The notes: generated from the sequence alone by a model not told the origin. A stretch of DNA of 64,000 bases from Pseudovirgaria hyperparasitica (GCA_010093815.1 ML996576.1), one strand, 5' to 3'. Shown: positions 7,386-37,445, counted from the stretch's first letter. Translations and numbers: made by a program.

Positions 7386-9226
7386 ATGGACCCAATTACG
7401 ATCATTGGTACGGCTGGAGCTCTTTGCAACATCATCGATGTGCTCTATAAGACTATCCAGAGCGCAATCCAGCTCCGAAACCAATATTCGGATGCCGACA
7501 TGACCATGCTCAGCCTCATTGCCCAGCTCACAGCACTCAAGGCTGCGCTATCGAAAATCCAAGATATCATCGATGGTGACTCAGGAGATCTATACCATCA
7601 ATTCATAATGGATCTCGACACCTCGATCACTTGCGTGAGATTACTCATCGGCAAGATCGAAGGACAATTCTCTGAACTCAAGACGAATGAGAAGGGCATG
7701 GATTTTACGAGTAAAGTCAAGTTTGTGTTTGGCAGCAGAGGAGTTGAGGAGACGCAAAGGATGATTGACCACCAAACGAGCGCTCTTATCTTACTATTAA
7801 ATGCAATTACTTAGTGGGTGCCTTATAACTGTTACTGCTAGTCAATGTGCTGACTCAGAATAGCAAGACTGTCAGTGAGCAACAAGGTATCTTGGAAAAA
7901 TCAGAAACCCGTAAGGTCATGCAAAGGATGCAGTGGGACTCGGAAAGCCTGGTAGTTCACCGAGATACTGACTCGTTCTTTTCACGCTACACGGACAAAC
8001 TTTCAAAGTTGTCCCTGGTCTTTCATTTTGATCGGGAATTCTTGATAACAAGAGTTTATGAGAAAGCTCTAAGGTCATCTCTGAAACACGACCTGCGCAT
8101 AAAACAACGTAGAATGATCTCTGAATCTAGTAAAGAAGATAAAGCCCGGTCCGTGGCCATTGACCGGCGCCTGAAGCAAGATAGTCGTGGTCTGTGCCAG
8201 AACGTCAAAGTCCTACTATTTGGACTTGAAGATAGCGGAAAAGATGCAATGGTCAAACATATGAAGCTCAAGTCTGCAAATGGGTACACTCGCTCAGAAC
8301 TGATAGAGTGGCGACAGATGATCAAGGCAAAGCTACTCCGGAATGTATTTGTACTTCTCGATGCCATGGAGCAATGTGGCATTGAACCCGGAAATGAGTC
8401 TAACATCAGCCACTGTGAATTTCTCATGAGATGTCGCTTAGACAACCCCATGAATGGTCGACTAGACTTCCATATAGGCGTTGCTATCCAAGCCCTATGG
8501 AACGATCCGTGCATGGCTAAAGTTCTTAAGCATTCCGCTGGCACCGATTATACCTTGGACGGCGAAGCCCGATAGTAAGATCCAGCATTTCCAGACTTAC
8601 AGTGAGAACAACCGCTGACGAAGTGTAGTTTATTCGAGCAGACGTCACGCATCGTCCAGCCACATTACGAGCCCACTGTGGAAGACATCCTTAGAACAAA
8701 TGACGAATCAAGAGGAATCCGTGAGACAGATTTTGTATTTGAAACTTTCCAAATGACGATTTTCGATATAAACACGAGACAACTAGGCGAGCAGCAGAAG
8801 TGGATACACGCATTCGAGACCGTGACTTCCATCATGTTTGTGGTAGATCTTGCGGATTACGAATCGATACATTCTGACCATGATTCGGGAGGTATGACGG
8901 AATCTCTTACACTCTTTGACTCTATGGTGAACTCTCGCTGGTTCTCACGGTCGTCTGTGATCCTCTTCCTCACAAATATGCATGCTTTCAGGAATAAACT
9001 TTTGAGGACTCCTTTCTCAAGCTACTTTCCCGACTATACTGGGCCCGATGATGCAGCTGCGATCTTGCAGTACATTATCAAAAGATTCAATGCATGCAAC
9101 AGATGCCATCTCGACTTCTTTCCACATGTCTTGGAACTATCAGATCCTGTCAGTCTCAAGCTTCTCCTCAAGGCTGTTCAAGAGACAACGGTAAACAACG
9201 CCCTTAGGACTCTAGGCAAGATCTAG
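7386..9226 (+). CDS. Fusion of a fungal STAND-type N-terminal (HeLo-like) domain with a degenerate heterotrimeric G-protein alpha domain; 3 exons, 578 aa
   Basis: Exons 7386-7813, 7864-8574 and 8629-9226 total 1737 nt in frame. Introns are GTGGGT..CTGAC..TAG and GTAAGA..CTGAC..TAG. N-terminus MDPITIIGTAGALCNIIDVL..LSLIAQLTALKAALSKI. G-alpha landmarks: RSVAIDRRLKQD, VKVLLFGLEDSGK, IQALWNDP, YEPTVEDILRT, KWIHAFETVTSIMFVVDLADY, ESLTLFDSMVNSRWF, YFPDYTG. Confidence 0.88.
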
Positions 9227-9923: not shown

Positions 9924-9930
9924 TATAAAA
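9924..9930 (+). promoter_or_regulatory. TATA box of LysM gene
   Basis: TATAAAA about 110 nt upstream of the ATG at 10037. Confidence 0.5.
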
Positions 9931-10036
9931 GCACGCTCATCTGCTGGATGTCCAGTCGAACATCATCAAAGCATATCCTCGACTATCGACGACTTCTTAT
10001 TTACTATACTACCGTCTCTTCGATAATCCAAAGACC

Positions 10037-10645
10037 ATGATGCTCATCCGCTCAGTCTCCGCCTTGATGACTCTCGGCTCGATTGCAGCAGCGAACCCCT
10101 TCCCTGCGTCATACTCTCTCACTACACGTCAAGATAATGAGGGCTGCAATGACAACTCGACTCGCTACACGTCCACGTCAGCGGGCTCTGTTTGCCTCTA
10201 CCGCCCTTCCGACTGCACAGCGACCACGCTCGTCGAGTCCGGCGATACTTGTAACAGCATCGCAGATCGTTTCAACAATTTCACCCTTTCCGTCTTCCGT
10301 TACTGGAACCCTGATATCGGACAGACATGTTTTGGACTTCGCGCCTACACTCCCGTGTGTATCGGAACACCATGGTACACGTTCACGCCTCCGGTACAGT
10401 CTCCCGATGGAACCATCGTTGGAACGACAGACTTGAACCCGACCCAGCTCCCCGTTCCAGTTATGCCAAGCATTGTGGAAGAATGCAACAGGTACTTCCT
10501 GGCTGGAAGCGGACAGAGAGTCGATGCGATTGCGCCTGCTGCAGGCGTTTCCGTGGAAGATATTTTGAGCTGGAACCCGACTTTGGACAAGGAGAATCCG
10601 GTGACATGGGCTGGGTACTGGCTTTGCGTTGGTGTCAGCGCATAG
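10037..10645 (+). CDS. Secreted LysM-domain protein (LysM effector-like, two Cys-containing fungal LysM modules)
   Basis: Signal-peptide-like MMLIRSVSALMTLGSIAAA. Modules VESGDTCNSIA..F..WNPDIG..C..L....VCIG and CNRYFL..SG....IA...GVSVEDILSWNP....WAGYWLCVGV. No catalytic domain. Confidence 0.9.
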   Translation: MMLIRSVSALMTLGSIAAANPFPASYSLTTRQDNEGCNDNSTRYTSTSAGSVCLYRPSDCTATTLVESGDTCNSIADRFNNFTLSVFRYWNPDIGQTCFGLRAYTPVCIGTPWYTFTPPVQSPDGTIVGTTDLNPTQLPVPVMPSIVEECNRYFLAGSGQRVDAIAPAAGVSVEDILSWNPTLDKENPVTWAGYWLCVGVSA

Positions 10646-34827: not shown

Positions 34828-36333
34828 TCATACAATGCCGTCCTCGGAGCACTTGCCCGCAGTCTCCATGCTGCGCAACGTATTCGAGCTCGTCAACAGA
34901 TCCAACTCGCCCGCCGCACGCGGGTGCTCGCTCTCGTCCAGTCTGGCAATACTGTGCCGGCCCGAGACAATGCCCGGAAACACCTTGCCCCACAGCCCGC
35001 CTGCGTCGAGCAAGATGGGCACTTCCTGCGTCGCCTGCGCCGCGGTCGTGGCTGTGTTGGTGGACGTGATGGTGGTGGTGATGGTGCTGGTCAGAGCCGG
35101 GTCGCCTGGATATATGCTCTCGTGGCGTCGTCGGGGAATGATCTCGTCGCCGGCGCGCGCGGTATGGTCGCCGGCTGAATCGAGCCCGGCGGAGACGCGG
35201 ACTTTGAAGACGGAGGAGTTGGGCGCTTGGGCGACCATGGTGGTGCGTTTGGGGGTGCGGACGTGGCGCCACATGGGGCGGAGGGTGGCGAGGCAGGAGG
35301 TGGTGATGGCGAGGCCGGGCTCGACGGAAGACCAGATGGCGATGTCGGTTGTTGCGTCTGTTTGGGAGGTAGGTTAGTTTGGTGGAAGGGACAGAAAGGT
35401 CTTGAGAGGAGACGTACAGAGGAAGTCGTCGCTGGTGAGGGCGTGGAGGTGGAACATGCGGACGATGGGGGCGAAGCAGGCACTGTTGGTAGCGTTAGGG
35501 ATTTGAAGTCGATGTAGGAAGGAGGTTACGCACATTGTCGCCATGCTCAGGATGCCGAACAGGATGGCTTTATCCCGCCAGCCCAGATTCAGGGTGAAGA
35601 TTAGGAAGATAGGTTGGCCGGCGAAGATGAAGTCGGTTACGACGCATATCACGCTGAACCAGTATGCCAGGGCAACATAGGTGTGGGGGTTGATGCACGT
35701 GCCCTGGTGTGTGCTGTCGCGGGCGAGTCTCGTCCAGAAGAAGGAGGCGGGCTTGCATTGGAAGGCAACGATGAAGACAAAGATGACGCCTGCGATTATG
35801 GTGACGTGGATGGCGTGCCATAACAAATAACGCTGGTGGCGGTAGATGGTGATGCGTAGCAGGAAGAGGCCGACGGAGACTTTGACGATGGTGATGATGA
35901 CGCCGTACATGAGATAGGCGATCCACCAGATCTGAACATTGTTAAGACGAGCTGGTAGTGTGAGTAAGGAGGGGAGCGGTACCAGCATAGTCCGTTTGAT
36001 GTGCTCATCATCGAGCTGTGAGACGTGCTCCCCAATTCCAAAACGAACTCCGAGTATGCAAAACACGCTGAATATGAGATATAGGAACTGTGCTACGGTC
36101 AGCGGAGGGGTATCATGGCAAGGAATTGTAGAATCGAGTTCCAGGATCAGTGATGTTGGGGGTCGGGGTGGCTTTTTGGGACTTACAAGAGCTATTGTTG
36201 CAAGGAAGTCATCAGCACCGAACCTCTTCAACAGACAGCGTCTGGTATAACATCGCAGCGAGACGGTGATGGTGGCTAGCACACTGAAGATTGAAACAAC
36301 ATATATCAGTGTAAGGCCGTGAGCAGCCAGCAT
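34828..36333 (-). CDS. Pth11-like (fungal rhodopsin-domain) 7TM integral membrane protein without CFEM domain, about 5 exons
   Basis: Motifs TVSLRCYTR, FGADD, GIGEH, VKVSVGLFLLRI, FQCKP..FW, TDFIFA..PI. After a GTACGT..CTAAC..CAG intron it continues DDFL|YATTDIAIWSSVEPGLAITTSCLATLRPM. Confidence 0.88.
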
Positions 36334-37445
36334 GATCAGAGGCAAGACACTCTATACGAACATGACCAAGTCGAGAAAGAAGTCAAGGAAGACCCAGGAT
36401 ATAACGCATTGGAACGGATCGCATCAGGGCACAGTCAGCGGGTTAAGGTTATGTGCAGGTTGGGTCTGGGTTTGAAGAATTCTAGGCTTGTACGGTGCTA
36501 AAGAAGGACATACAAGGCGGTAAACTGTAAAGTGCACATGTGGCAGATGTCACCTAGGCTCTAGTGAAGTAGTGGATGGCGATCTGCTAGCAGAGCCGCA
36601 GACTGGAATTGGGGGAGAGAGAGTTCGTCTCGGTGTAGGGAAAGGAGAAGATTAAGTTTGACGACAGCTGTCGTCCAAGCCTCTTTGGGGGAGGTTCAGC
36701 AAATAAGTTTCGATGGCTGTAGTCAAACTAACTTCGAGTAGCGTCGATCGGCAGACCAAGACAACTTTATCGGACGGATTCCTCGGGCTTTGGCGAGCTT
36801 GACGACAGAACAAGATTAACGGAGGACGGAATTCACGAGAGCAACACGAAGATGTTGATGTTTTGATGACGCTTCATTCGTATCGGGCACCCAGGCAGCC
36901 GGCAGCCACTCGCCACGAGTCATGCGCTGCACATCAAACAAACAATGATACGGTATTGATGCATTATCGGTACTGTATATAATATGCATGTACGGATGTG
37001 GCTTGAATGCACAGTCTCACTCTTATGGCCTTTAAACCCTTGTCCATATTTCACGTCCCCGTTCTGCAGCTGGGATGTAGCTTCACGCTGTCGCATAACA
37101 GTTCCGTGGCGTTCACATCGTCAGAAATAGCAGTCTTTAGTATTAATAGAGATATAATTAGATACACTAGCTGATAGTGCAGAATGCTACGTGGATCGAA
37201 ATCATCTACTATCGCCTTCTATCTAATTACCTGTAAATTGGTCATGGTCTTTTGATGGCTAATACTACCCCTATTATCCGGAGAGTCGGCGACAAGTCCG
37301 CGTAGCTACCATGCTGAAAAGTACGGAGGCCATGCCAAGCCCTACTGTACCTATCTCATCTACACTTTTTGGTTCCAGTGATGCCTTAAGGCCTTAATGT
37401 CTTACAGCCTTATCGCCGCCTAGGCATATGTGTAGCTGCCTGACT

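What the first reader, a model, noticed from the sequence alone, without database searches (positions are those of the whole stretch)
8200..9160. All five G-box motifs of the G-alpha domain are degenerate while the scaffold is conserved
Seen, compared by eye with the G-alpha-i consensus: G1 GAGESGKST becomes GLEDSGKDA (Mg-binding Ser to Asp). Switch I LRTRVKTTG becomes LRTNDESRG (catalytic Arg to Asn). G3 DVGGQRSERKKW becomes DINTRQLGEQQKW. G4 FLNKKD becomes FLTNMH. G5 HFTCAT becomes HVLELS. Neighbouring scaffold segments (KWIHAFE, LFDSMVNSRWF, YFPDYTG) remain near-canonical, and there is no frameshift or premature stop. Inference: selective loss of nucleotide-contacting residues points to a maintained pseudo-GTPase working as a protein-interaction surface rather than random decay.
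Basis: partly seen in the sequence, partly recalled or inferred. Interest (0 to 1): 0.7.

Follow-up and report, generated by a model that had tools for sequence, protein, structure and literature searches.

The report
Dead G-alpha fused to HeLo-like domain
This fungal gene encodes a G-protein alpha subunit that has lost its GTP-handling residues but stays conserved and expressed, joined to a helical domain of the kind fungi use in cell-death and immune proteins, so it probably works as a nucleotide-independent sensor or adaptor.

Summary
All five G boxes of the G-alpha domain at 8222-9142 are degenerate, while the alpha-N helix, switch-II helix, alpha-3 and the alpha-G/alpha-4 loop stay near-canonical. 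The loss is selective. Of 50 columns at least 90% conserved in 68 canonical G-alphas, the window protein keeps 7 of 20 inside G-box windows and 23 of 30 outside (Fisher p=0.007).

The gene is larger than its public annotation (352 aa, Pseudovirgaria hyperparasitica). The real product is 578 aa (7386-9226, two introns), and both introns are spliced out in RNA-derived contigs. Its first 225 residues form a PigL_N/HeLo-like helical module plus a conserved linker.

This module always travels with a degenerate G-alpha: 25 of 25 profile hits, from five classes of Pezizomycotina. Family-specific residues replace canonical ones (K270N in 92% of 13 members).

I read it as a maintained pseudo-G-alpha. 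It is analogous to plant XLG proteins, and in layout to MLKL (executioner bundle plus dead enzyme). Nucleotide binding, partners and function remain untested. I found no description of this fusion family in print.

The parts
7386..9226 (+). Whole coding region, ATG to stop: 578 codons in three exons. The public annotation (P0001, 352 aa) starts only at M227.
   Evidence: model, translation. (both introns skipped in RNA-derived contigs). (P0001 is 100% identical from M227).
7386..7813 (+). Exon 1: N-terminal five-helix domain, PigL_N / HeLo-like. Its most hydrophobic 19-residue window is residues 3-21.
   Evidence: 29 hits, 25 with PF00503. AF2 pLDDT 82.5, pTM 0.80; 23 of 30 atlas hits are PigL_N clusters, top score 0.97. 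PF17111 is sub-threshold in 5 of 6 relatives. KD19 maximum 1.49 at residue 3.
7814..7863 (+). Intron 1 (50 nt, GT..AG, phase 2).
   Evidence: joint 7813>7864 in both runs. The same position and phase occur in metagenome relative L001.
7864..8574 (+). Exon 2: conserved linker, alpha-N helix, beta-1/G1, and most of the helical domain of G-alpha.
   Evidence: (PF00503 E=3.5e-19, residues 94-224 of the exon).
7937..8065 (+). Conserved linker motif. Family consensus: DTASLxVHRD..SKxSxVFxFDRELxxTxVY. It lies between the helical bundle and alpha-N.
   Evidence: alignments A1, A2. AF2 gives this stretch low confidence in relative P0013 (residues 210-257). Coordinates by hand.
8114..8116 (+). M227, start codon of the truncated public gene model.
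   Evidence: (P0001 sequence).
8129..8221 (+). Alpha-N helix with the canonical RSxxIDxxLxxD signature, then strand beta-1. It is internal here, so there is no N-terminal lipidation site.
   Evidence: alignment to gustducin/Gi alpha-N. (signature kept in 13 of 18 family rows, by my count of that alignment).
8222..8248 (+). G1 / P-loop, GLEDSGKDA: GxxxxGK kept, the Mg-ligand Ser replaced by Asp, three acidic residues in the loop.
8575..8628 (+). Intron 2 (54 nt, GT..AG, phase 2, contains in-frame stops).
   Evidence: joint 8574>8629. Same position and phase in L001.
8629..9226 (+). Exon 3: the Ras-like half of G-alpha, from switch I to the C-terminus, plus the stop codon.
   Evidence: PF00503 E=1.9e-46. 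(Go/Gi chains, E about 1e-37).
8690..8716 (+). Switch I, LRTNDESRG: catalytic Arg replaced by Asn, Mg-ligand Thr by Ser, the next Thr by Arg.
8765..8782 (+). G3, DINTRQ: both glycines of DxxGQ lost, one residue inserted, Asp and Gln kept.
8783..8818 (+). Switch-II helix, LGEQQKWIHAFE: K210, W211, I212, H213, F215 and E216 kept.
8912..8944 (+). Alpha-3 helix, LFDSMVNSRWF: one of the most conserved scaffold segments in the slower-evolving members of the family.
8972..8983 (+). G4, TNMH in place of NKxD. Asn at the K270 position is a family signature (92% of 13 members).
9023..9043 (+). Alpha-G/alpha-4 loop, YFPDYTG: F287, D289, Y290 and G292 are 100% conserved in 13 family rows.
9125..9142 (+). 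G5, HVLELS in place of HxTCAT. ELxD recurs in Elasticomyces and Zymoseptoria, and EMSN stands at the same place in an unnamed relative.

Best explanation
The locus encodes an expressed 578-residue, two-module protein. It belongs to a family conserved across Pezizomycotina that I could not find described in print.

Module 1 (residues 1-225) is a PigL_N/HeLo-like helical bundle. It has a hydrophobic, Gly/Ala-rich first helix, followed by a conserved linker motif. Module 2 (residues 227-578) is a complete G-alpha fold, comprising the alpha-N helix, the Ras-like domain and the helical domain. Its guanine, phosphate, Mg and catalytic residues have been replaced.

Most likely mechanism (inferred): the G-alpha-like domain no longer runs a GTP/GDP cycle. 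It serves instead as a nucleotide-independent binding and regulatory domain. It would use the surfaces it has kept: alpha-N, the switch-II helix, alpha-3, the alpha-G/alpha-4 loop and the C-terminal tail. In real G-alphas these surfaces contact G-beta-gamma, effectors and receptors. Through this domain the protein would tie the HeLo-like module to the G-protein signalling machinery.

Functionally this resembles plant XLG2, a nucleotide-poor G-alpha-like protein that still binds G-beta-gamma and RGS. Architecturally it resembles MLKL, a four-helix executioner bundle held by a dead enzyme domain.

Shown here: the gene model, splicing, the fold assignment of the G-alpha part, the motif losses and their selectivity, family conservation and rate heterogeneity. 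Inferred: loss of GTP binding, the partners, and any membrane or cell-death activity of the N-terminal module.
For: 1. Real, expressed gene. Contigs of two runs from one sample skip exactly 7814-7863 and 8575-8628, both GT..AG. The ORF is intact over 578 codons.

2. G-alpha fold. PF00503 scores E=3.5e-19 (exon 2) and 1.9e-46 (exon 3), together covering profile positions 2-332 of 333. Alignments to solved Go/Gi/Gt chains agree.

3. Selective loss. The window protein keeps 7 of 20 versus 23 of 30 canonical-invariant columns (p=0.007). Six of 8 family members tested show the same bias at p<0.05. Of 21 columns at least 90% conserved in canonical rows but under 50% in the family, 14 lie in G-box windows and 3 more in switch II.

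4. Family.
- Exon 1 finds 29 proteins, 25 of which carry PF00503.
- A profile of the N-module finds 25 proteins, all 25 with PF00503.
- Named sources span five classes: Glutinoglossum, Monosporascus, Fusarium, Zymoseptoria, Elasticomyces, Lophiotrema, Massariosphaeria, Pyrenochaeta, Cudoniella and Xylographa.
- Thozetella and Ilyonectria come only as shorter models. I placed these by their G-alpha domain and, in the rows read, the linker motif.
- None of the 22 fusion-family rows tabulated has all boxes intact.

5. Constraint.
- Family-specific fixed residues include K270N at 92%.
- The window protein keeps 45 of 48 shared and 8 of 9 family-specific conserved residues.
- Both intron positions and phases are shared with metagenome relative L001.
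- In Fusarium, mean identity is 92.5% for the N-module, 56.6% for the linker and 69.7% for G-alpha. Rates are therefore not uniform, as neutral decay would predict.
- Among near-identical metagenome haplotypes of two other lineages there are 10 synonymous and 7 non-synonymous differences. With a 78% non-synonymous expectation, binomial P=0.001.

6. HeLo-like assignment.
- PF17111 is sub-threshold in 5 of 6 relatives (best 24.9 bits against a cut-off of 27.2).
- It is precomputed for P0042 and P0200.
- 23 of 30 atlas neighbours are PigL_N clusters.
- The AF2 model is a five-helix bundle. It aligns to the MLKL four-helix bundle at Z 11.4, rmsd 2.4 over 100 residues, and to NRG1 and MLA13 CC domains at Z about 9.

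7. Precedent. The XLG2 abstract (10.1101/795088) reports 100-1000 times weaker GTP-gamma-S binding, with G-beta-gamma and RGS binding retained.
Against: - There is no biochemical test.
- The window protein keeps GxxxxGK, D200 and Q204, so weak or altered nucleotide binding is not excluded.
- Its terminal branch is long: 0.98 versus 0.42-0.48 for the nearest relatives.
- No close relative's DNA was available, so no dN/dS exists for this gene itself.
- The G-alpha-like domain evolves fast in Fusarium: 69.7% identity versus 92.5% for the N-module.
- Seven of 28 Fusarium rows are under 550 aa, and four of them (P0014, P0016, P0017, P0019) carry no precomputed PF00503. The domain may be dispensable or decaying there, or the models may be faulty.
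- Two of 8 members (P0058, P0119) show no selective loss, because their scaffold has drifted too.
- Several members (Cudoniella, Massariosphaeria P0203, Pyrenochaeta, Lophiotrema, Xylographa) have also lost the alpha-3 and switch-II signatures.
- The HeLo-like assignment never reaches Pfam's cut-off, and the window's own exon 1 gives no PF17111 hit at E<=0.1.
- Foldseek found nothing at E<=0.001. The VIA Z-scores lie within the range the tool calls common for helical bundles.
- The full-length model of relative P0013 gives no confident inter-domain geometry (pTM 0.59).
- The polymorphism counts are small and come from unnamed metagenome organisms.
Confidence: 0.6

Rival explanations
1. Non-canonical but still active nucleotide switch. 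The domain still binds a nucleotide (GTP weakly, or another NTP) through the retained P-loop lysine, D200 and Q204, and it cycles in an unusual way.
For: GxxxxGK, D200 and Q204 are retained in the window protein. Glutinoglossum and Monosporascus also keep GxxxSGK, and Monosporascus ibericus (P0196) keeps NKVD at G4. The G-alpha part of relative P0013 is modelled with block pLDDT mostly above 90.
Against: - The guanine-specificity box and G5 are both replaced. The Mg-ligand Ser is Asp, and the P-loop carries three acidic residues.
- Both DxxG glycines are lost.
- Many family members (Fusarium, Zymoseptoria, Ilyonectria) have no P-loop lysine or glycines at all, yet keep the architecture.
- XLG2, with comparable losses, binds GTP-gamma-S 100-1000 times more weakly (abstract of 10.1101/795088).
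Confidence: 0.15
2. Decaying or dispensable paralogue. In Pseudovirgaria, or in the family generally, the G-alpha-like part is under relaxed selection on its way to loss, and only the N-terminal module matters.
For: - The window protein has a long terminal branch (0.98).
- The G-alpha part is far less conserved than the N-module in Fusarium, at 69.7% versus 92.5%. The same holds between metagenome locus L007 and F. fujikuroi, at 45% versus 86%.
- Seven of 28 Fusarium rows are short models, and four of those lack a precomputed PF00503.
- Scaffold motifs are also lost in five lineages.
Against: - The ORF is intact over 578 codons with correct splicing.
- The window protein keeps 45 of 48 and 8 of 9 family-conserved residues.
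- Loss is concentrated in the nucleotide boxes rather than spread uniformly.
- The fusion persists in five classes, and 25 of 25 profile hits keep PF00503.
- In the G-alpha segments of the metagenome haplotypes there are 4 synonymous and 3 non-synonymous differences. Against the 78% non-synonymous expectation, P=0.046, which is weak.
- In Fusarium, G-alpha (69.7%) is still more conserved than the linker (56.6%).
Confidence: 0.1
3. Pure dominant-negative G-beta-gamma sink. The protein only sequesters G-beta-gamma, as proposed for XLG2, and the N-terminal module is merely a localisation or stability tag with no effector activity.
For: The alpha-N signature and the K210/W211/F215 switch-II residues are retained. 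The XLG2 abstract proposes exactly this role.
Against: In the family sets compared, the N-module is as conserved as the G-alpha part or more so: 92.5% in Fusarium, 84.6% in Monosporascus, and about equal to G-alpha between Zymoseptoria strains. It belongs, by weak but convergent evidence, to a domain family tied to cell-death execution. A mere tag would not be expected to be the slowest-evolving part.
Confidence: 0.15

Closest known systems
Plant extra-large G proteins (XLG1-3, especially Arabidopsis XLG2)
   Same: A long N-terminal extension is followed by a C-terminal G-alpha-like domain lacking residues needed for nucleotide binding and hydrolysis. XLG2 binds GTP-gamma-S 100-1000 times more weakly, yet still binds G-beta-gamma and an RGS domain (abstract of 10.1101/795088). 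This is the best functional analogy for a nucleotide-independent G-alpha.
   Different: The lineage differs (described as plant-specific in that abstract), and so does the N-terminal part. Here it is a PigL_N/HeLo-like helical bundle plus a conserved linker. No common origin of the fusion is implied. The window protein's nearest canonical relatives are fungal G-alphas.
Fungal 'fourth' G-alpha subunits: Aspergillus oryzae/flavus GaoC and Ustilago maydis Gpa4
   Same: These are extra G-alpha paralogues outside groups I-III. GaoC has its P-loop glycines and catalytic Gln replaced and is called 'probably catalytically inactive' (passages of PMC5869405). Both are long (GaoC 690 aa, Gpa4 580 aa) and listed as function unknown (table rows of PMC13267034).
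   Different: [quoted passage not shown] PMC5869405 says the A. flavus G-alphas contain only the G_alpha domain. The family found here is conserved across five classes and defined by its N-terminal module.
MLKL (four-helix-bundle executioner plus pseudokinase)
   Same: The layout matches: an N-terminal helical bundle with a hydrophobic first helix, connecting helices, then a catalytically dead enzyme fold that could act as the regulatory switch. The exon-1 model aligns to the MLKL bundle (4btf_A, Z 11.4, rmsd 2.4, 100 residues, 15% identity). Passages of PMC9815663 link HeLo-like (PF17111) domains to the MLKL bundle.
   Different: The dead enzyme is a G-alpha, not a kinase. The structural match lies within helical-bundle background. 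No activation mechanism, oligomerisation or membrane activity is shown. The MLKL mechanism itself is recalled, not tested here.
HeLo-like / PigL_N (PF17111) N-terminal domains of fungal NLRs and amyloid-controlled effectors
   Same: The exon-1 domain's nearest language-model neighbours are PigL_N and SesA clusters. Relatives give consistent sub-threshold PF17111 hits over profile positions 3-150. UniRef names two Fusarium members 'Fungal N-terminal domain-containing protein'.
   Different: There is no NACHT or NB-ARC domain, no repeats, and no C-terminal amyloid motif. The partner domain is G-alpha, an architecture not mentioned in the NLR surveys I searched (PMC9815663 has 0 occurrences of 'g-alpha' and 'GTPase'). 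The Pfam cut-off is not reached.
Canonical fungal group III G-alpha (GNA-3 / Gpa2 type)
   Same: Full-length PF00503 fold. It shares the alpha-3 'NSRWF' and 'FPDYxGGxD' signatures with canonical rows P0002 and P0047. S. pombe Gpa2 (P0048) is 36% identical. Databases label Fusarium members 'GNA-3'.
   Different: The G1-G5 boxes are degenerate. There is no N-terminal MG lipidation site, because alpha-N is internal. A 225-residue N-terminal module is present. The 'GNA-3' label on family members is a misnomer by similarity.

Membership tests
G-protein alpha subunit (Pfam PF00503) | Sequence match to the family profile over Ras-like plus helical domains, above the curated cut-off | tested here: met
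   69.5 bits (exon 2) and 159.2 bits (exon 3) against a cut-off of 48.8, covering profile positions 2-132 and 145-332 of 333. E down to 1e-37 against solved Go/Gi.
G-protein alpha subunit (functional GTPase) | Intact G1 GxxxxGK[ST], switch-I RxxTxG, G3 DxxGQ, G4 NKxD and G5 TCA motifs | tested here: not met
   GLEDSGKD, LRTNDESRG, DINTRQ, TNMH, LELS; 13 of 20 canonical-invariant positions in these boxes are changed.
G-protein alpha subunit (heterotrimer member) | N-terminal Gly-2/Cys lipidation site directly ahead of alpha-N | tested here: not met
   Alpha-N begins at about residue 232, behind a 225-residue module. The protein starts MDPITI.
G-protein alpha subunit (heterotrimer member) | Binding of G-beta-gamma through alpha-N and switch II | not testable with these tools
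   Only sequence retention was seen: the RSxxIDxxLxxD signature, K210, W211, I212, H213, F215 and E216.
Pseudo-GTPase (pseudoenzyme with a GTPase fold) | GTPase fold with loss of residues needed for nucleotide binding and/or hydrolysis, yet evolutionarily maintained | tested here: met
   Fold. Losses. Maintenance: 25 of 25 profile hits keep the architecture, family-specific fixed residues, splicing and expression.
Pseudo-GTPase | Measured absence or strong reduction of nucleotide binding and hydrolysis | not testable with these tools
   Needs recombinant protein.
PigL_N / HeLo-like domain (Pfam PF17111) | Profile match above the curated cut-off (27.2 bits) | tested here: inconclusive
   Window exon 1: no PF17111 hit at E<=0.1. 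Relatives: 14.4-24.9 bits in 5 of 6, none reaching the cut-off. A precomputed PF17111.12 is listed for P0042 and P0200. Atlas: 23 of 30 hits are PigL_N clusters, top score 0.97.
PigL_N / HeLo-like domain | Four-helix-bundle core like MLKL, HeLo or plant CC domains | tested here: inconclusive
   AF2 gives a five-helix model, pLDDT 82.5. VIA scores: MLKL Z 11.4, NRG1 CC-R 9.2, MLA13 9.0, but unrelated bundles score as high (IncA 13.3). Foldseek's best is E=4.3e-3.
PigL_N / HeLo-like domain | Membrane targeting or cell-death activity of the domain | not testable with these tools
   The only observation is that residues 3-21 form the most hydrophobic 19-residue window, KD 1.49.
Fungal NLR (STAND) proteins | Central NACHT or NB-ARC domain plus C-terminal repeats | tested here: not met
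   Pfam finds only PF00503 after the N-module, in the window protein and in relatives.
Plant XLG proteins | Plant lineage and the XLG-type N-terminal half | tested here: not met
   The source is the fungus Pseudovirgaria hyperparasitica. The N-terminal half is a PigL_N-like helical module. The resemblance is functional and architectural only.

The most novel reading that the evidence does not exclude
The family is a fungal cell-autonomous surveillance device built like MLKL. A HeLo-like membrane-attacking bundle would be held in check by a dead G-alpha that acts as a bait or decoy for the heterotrimeric G-protein pathway. The bait would sense free G-beta-gamma, a receptor, or a microbial toxin or effector that targets real G-alphas. 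On engagement it would release the N-terminal helix to permeabilise membranes or trigger regulated cell death.

This would be an 'integrated decoy' immune sensor without an NLR. It would also amount to a conserved fourth class of fungal G-alpha, contrary to the published view that none exists (passage of PMC3100592).

Three observations fit it. The effector-like N-module evolves slowly while the sensor-like G-alpha evolves fast. The taxonomic distribution is patchy. The G-beta-gamma and receptor-facing elements are retained.
Probability: 0.15. Interest if true: 0.85.

Novelty: new variant of a known kind. Interest (0 to 1): 0.6.

Why it matters
Heterotrimeric G-alpha subunits are textbook GTP switches, and fungi are said to have three conserved classes. 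Extra, degenerate copies such as GaoC and Gpa4 have been set aside as inactive oddities without function.

This finding shows that one such 'dead' G-alpha belongs to a conserved, expressed two-domain family spread over at least five classes of Pezizomycotina, including crop pathogens such as Zymoseptoria and Fusarium. In that family the nucleotide pocket was selectively dismantled while partner-facing surfaces were kept.

The domain is always welded to a HeLo-like module, a kind linked to fungal cell death and immunity. That makes three questions directly testable:
- Can a G-alpha fold signal without nucleotide in fungi, as XLG2 does in plants?
- What controls HeLo-like domains outside NLRs?
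- Does G-protein signalling feed into fungal regulated cell death?

It also corrects database annotations. The Pseudovirgaria model is truncated to 352 aa, and the Fusarium members are mislabelled GNA-3.

Tried and rejected
- **Whole genome.** None is held for this window, so paralogues and the organism's own G-beta could not be sought.
- **RNA runs.** No RNA holder is listed. The two holders are of unrecorded kind and come from one sample. I treat their contigs as RNA-derived only because they skip both GT..AG introns. They span neighbouring genes, so they give no transcript start and no expression level.
- **Complex prediction**, N-module against the G-alpha domain: 'no answer', score 0.01, controls not run, and my alignments were not used. 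This is not evidence either way.
- **Foldseek** of the exon-1 model against the PDB: nothing at E<=0.001. VIA-align matches to MLKL and CC domains lie within helical-bundle background.
- **dN/dS per region.** No fungal genome DNA was reachable. The metagenome scan gave 11 loci, but pairs were either over 99% identical or under about 80%. L001 versus L002 has only 3 synonymous and 3 non-synonymous differences, omega 0.28, with no power. Only the pooled counts were used.
- **First metagenome scan** with alignment A1 failed for lack of a conserved stretch. I repeated it with the smaller alignment A5.
- **DUF7810.** A weak hit to the exon-2 linker (E=0.076) did not recur in relatives scanned at E<=1, so I dismissed it as chance.
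- **Origin from group III G-alpha.** The FastTree of 125 rows leaves the family's sister group unresolved. The family group has SH-like support 93 and is not starred. That tree used only rows with a single match covering at least 290 query positions, and only 6 of the 28 Fusarium rows.
- **GaoC and Gpa4.** Whether they belong to the family could not be tested, because their sequences were not obtainable.
- **Earlier notes of this scan.** There are none for this genome.
- **Literature.** Searches for the fusion or for a fungal pseudo-G-alpha family found nothing relevant. Subscription-only papers are not covered.
- **Motif coordinates.** The coordinates in 'parts' were therefore read by hand.
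Full report
**Gene model and expression**

The interval 8200-9160 lies inside a plus-strand gene with three exons: 7386-7813, 7864-8574 and 8629-9226. Both introns are GT..AG (50 and 54 nt). Joining the exons gives an open frame of 578 codons.

Contigs of two public runs from one sample lie on the locus without a single mismatch and skip exactly 7814-7863 and 8575-8628. The gene is therefore transcribed and spliced as modelled. These contigs also run through neighbouring genes, so they fix neither the transcript start nor its level. No run is on record as RNA.

The public protein for this locus is a 352-residue 'G protein alpha subunit' of Pseudovirgaria hyperparasitica. It begins at M227 of my model. 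That model is truncated. The upstream 226 residues are in frame and spliced. They are 48-54% identical to the N-terminal parts of full-length relatives.

**Checking the observation**

Pfam's G-alpha profile matches exon 2 (E=3.5e-19) and exon 3 (E=1.9e-46), together covering positions 2-332 of 333.
- GLEDSGKDA on GAGESGKST
- LRTNDESRG on LRTRVKTTG
- DINT-R-Q on DVGG-Q, with a one-residue insertion
- TNMH on NKKD
- LELS on TCAT

The residue numbers and their roles are recalled knowledge of Gi-alpha-1: Ser47 and Thr181 as Mg ligands, Arg178 and Gln204 in catalysis, NKxD and TCAT for guanine. I transferred the numbering through a Gi-like row (P0105, index+38).

The scaffold strings are also confirmed: KWIHAFE, LFDSMVNSRWF and YFPDYTG. 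There are two refinements. The P-loop backbone GxxxxGK, Asp200 and Gln204 survive. The reading frame is uninterrupted only after removal of intron 2.

**Is it more than chance?**

I aligned 68 rows that have canonical G1, switch-I, G3 and G4 motifs, taken from the best 150 of 8029 matches to the annotated protein. Fifty columns are at least 90% conserved in them. The window protein keeps 7 of the 20 that fall in the G-box windows and 23 of the 30 outside (Fisher p=0.0072).

**The family**

Exon 1 alone finds 29 proteins, and 25 of them carry the G-alpha domain. The four that do not are short Fusarium models. A profile of the N-terminal module finds 25 proteins, all 25 with the G-alpha domain.

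Named sources cover:
- Dothideomycetes: Zymoseptoria, Elasticomyces, Lophiotrema, Massariosphaeria, Pyrenochaeta
- Sordariomycetes: Fusarium, Monosporascus
- Leotiomycetes: Cudoniella
- Lecanoromycetes: Xylographa
- Geoglossomycetes: Glutinoglossum

. Thozetella and Ilyonectria appear only as shorter models. I placed them by their G-alpha domain and, in the rows read, the linker motif.

Eleven metagenome loci add further members. The closest, L001, shares both intron positions and phases with the window gene.

None of the 22 fusion-family rows tabulated has all boxes intact. Six of 8 members tested show the same selective bias at p<0.05. Two (P0058, P0119) do not, because their scaffold has drifted as well.

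Across 13 slower-evolving members, 57 columns are at least 75% conserved. Forty-eight match the canonical consensus and cluster in beta-4 to alpha-4. Nine are family-specific, notably Asn at the K270 position in 92%. The window protein carries 45 of the 48 and 8 of the 9.

Of 21 columns that are at least 90% conserved in canonical rows but under 50% in the family, 14 lie in the G-box windows and three more in switch II. The alpha-N signature RSxxIDxxLxxD, at the canonical distance from beta-1, is kept in 13 of 18 family rows, Fusarium included.

**Selection**

No fungal genome DNA was reachable, so I could not compute the classic dN/dS by region. There are three indirect lines:

1. Rates differ sharply along the protein. 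Among eight Fusarium orthologues, mean identity is 92.5% in the N-module, 56.6% in the linker and 69.7% in the G-alpha part.
2. Near-identical metagenome haplotypes of two other lineages differ at 10 synonymous and 7 non-synonymous sites. With 78% non-synonymous expected, binomial P=0.001. For the G-alpha segments alone the counts are 4 and 3, P=0.046. The numbers are small.
3. The fused architecture persists over five classes.

Against constraint stand several facts. The window protein's branch is long: 0.98 versus 0.42-0.48 for its nearest relatives. Seven of 28 Fusarium rows are short models. Five lineages have also lost the scaffold motifs.

**The N-terminal module**

- AlphaFold2 with a 25-row alignment gives a five-helix bundle for exon 1 (pLDDT 82.5, pTM 0.80).
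- Pfam PF17111 (PigL_N, formerly Helo_like_N) matches 5 of 6 relatives below its cut-off (best 24.9 against 27.2 bits). It is listed as precomputed for two of them. The window's own exon 1 gives no hit at E<=0.1.
- Of 30 language-model neighbours, 23 are PigL_N clusters, with a top score of 0.97.
- Foldseek finds nothing at E<=0.001.
- VIA-align lists the MLKL bundle (Z 11.4), NRG1 CC-R (9.2) and MLA13 (9.0). Unrelated bundles score as high, so this only agrees with the assignment and does not prove it.
- The most hydrophobic 19-residue window of the domain is residues 3-21.
- Passages of PMC9815663 describe PF17111 domains as HeLo-like, MLKL-related and pore-forming-associated.
- A full-length model of the Glutinoglossum relative folds both domains confidently. 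The conserved linker and the inter-domain geometry stay uncertain (pTM 0.59).
- A complex prediction of the two modules gave no answer.

**Interpretation**

The best-supported reading is a maintained pseudo-G-alpha that works without a GTP cycle. It would use the partner-facing surfaces it has kept, and it is permanently coupled to a HeLo-like module.

The nearest functional precedent is plant XLG2 (abstract of 10.1101/795088). The nearest architectural one is MLKL. Within fungi, GaoC and Gpa4 were noted as degenerate, long and of unknown function. They were taken as evidence against a conserved fourth class (passages of PMC5869405, PMC13267034 and PMC3100592).

None of my searches found a description of the fusion family. 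Subscription-only literature is not covered.

The genomic neighbourhood is ordinary housekeeping: CutC, a LysM protein, an epimerase, RNase III, a CCT subunit, Get5.

I did not check it. If right, it is another case of a dead G-alpha reused as a module.

Noticed in passing
window 7386-8113: The public gene model (P0001, 352 aa) omits exon 1 and the first 83 codons of exon 2. Halenospora (P0184, 376 aa) and Kalmusia (P0114, 341 aa) models that cluster with the family are similarly short and may be truncated in the same way.
   Followed up: partly
P0058 residues 1-37; P0081 residues 1-37 (Elasticomyces, Zymoseptoria): Ahead of the helical bundle, these Mycosphaerellales members carry an extra Asn/Gly-rich segment of about 35 residues, with a shared N-A-[RQ]-V-[HY]-N-G-[DN]-x-Y-A core. 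I did not test whether it is a short signalling or amyloid-like motif.
   Followed up: no
P0034 (1212 aa), P0040 (1163 aa), Fusarium: In these gene models the family protein runs on into an MFS sugar/quinate transporter (PF00083, PF07690). This is probably a merge of neighbouring genes, and it hints at a conserved neighbour in Fusarium.
   Followed up: no
P0053 (670 aa), P0151 (674 aa), P0159 (2766 aa): P0053 and P0151 each hold two full G-alpha domains in tandem. P0159 has nine partial G-alpha-like stretches.
   Followed up: no
P0003, P0004, P0005, P0054, P0072, P0165 (P0003-P0005 and P0165 are named Basidiomycota): Many basidiomycete G-alpha paralogues also lack canonical G boxes. One, from Collybiopsis (679 aa), has a different, unrelated N-terminal extension of about 320 residues. 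G-alpha degeneration seems to have happened repeatedly in fungi.
   Followed up: partly
L001 3001-4800 and L002 (metagenome contigs of 162 kb and 124 kb): These are the closest relatives of the window's N-module (57% and 55% identity). Both introns sit at the same positions and phases. The G boxes are again degenerate in the spliced L001 product, for example a P-loop without the lysine.
   Followed up: partly
window 35377-36351 (-): An ORF with a fungal rhodopsin domain (PF20684, E=1.6e-27) lies 26 kb downstream. No link to the finding is apparent.
   Followed up: no
window 9929-10642 (+): The next gene downstream encodes a small LysM-domain protein (PF01476, E=1.8e-6).
   Followed up: no
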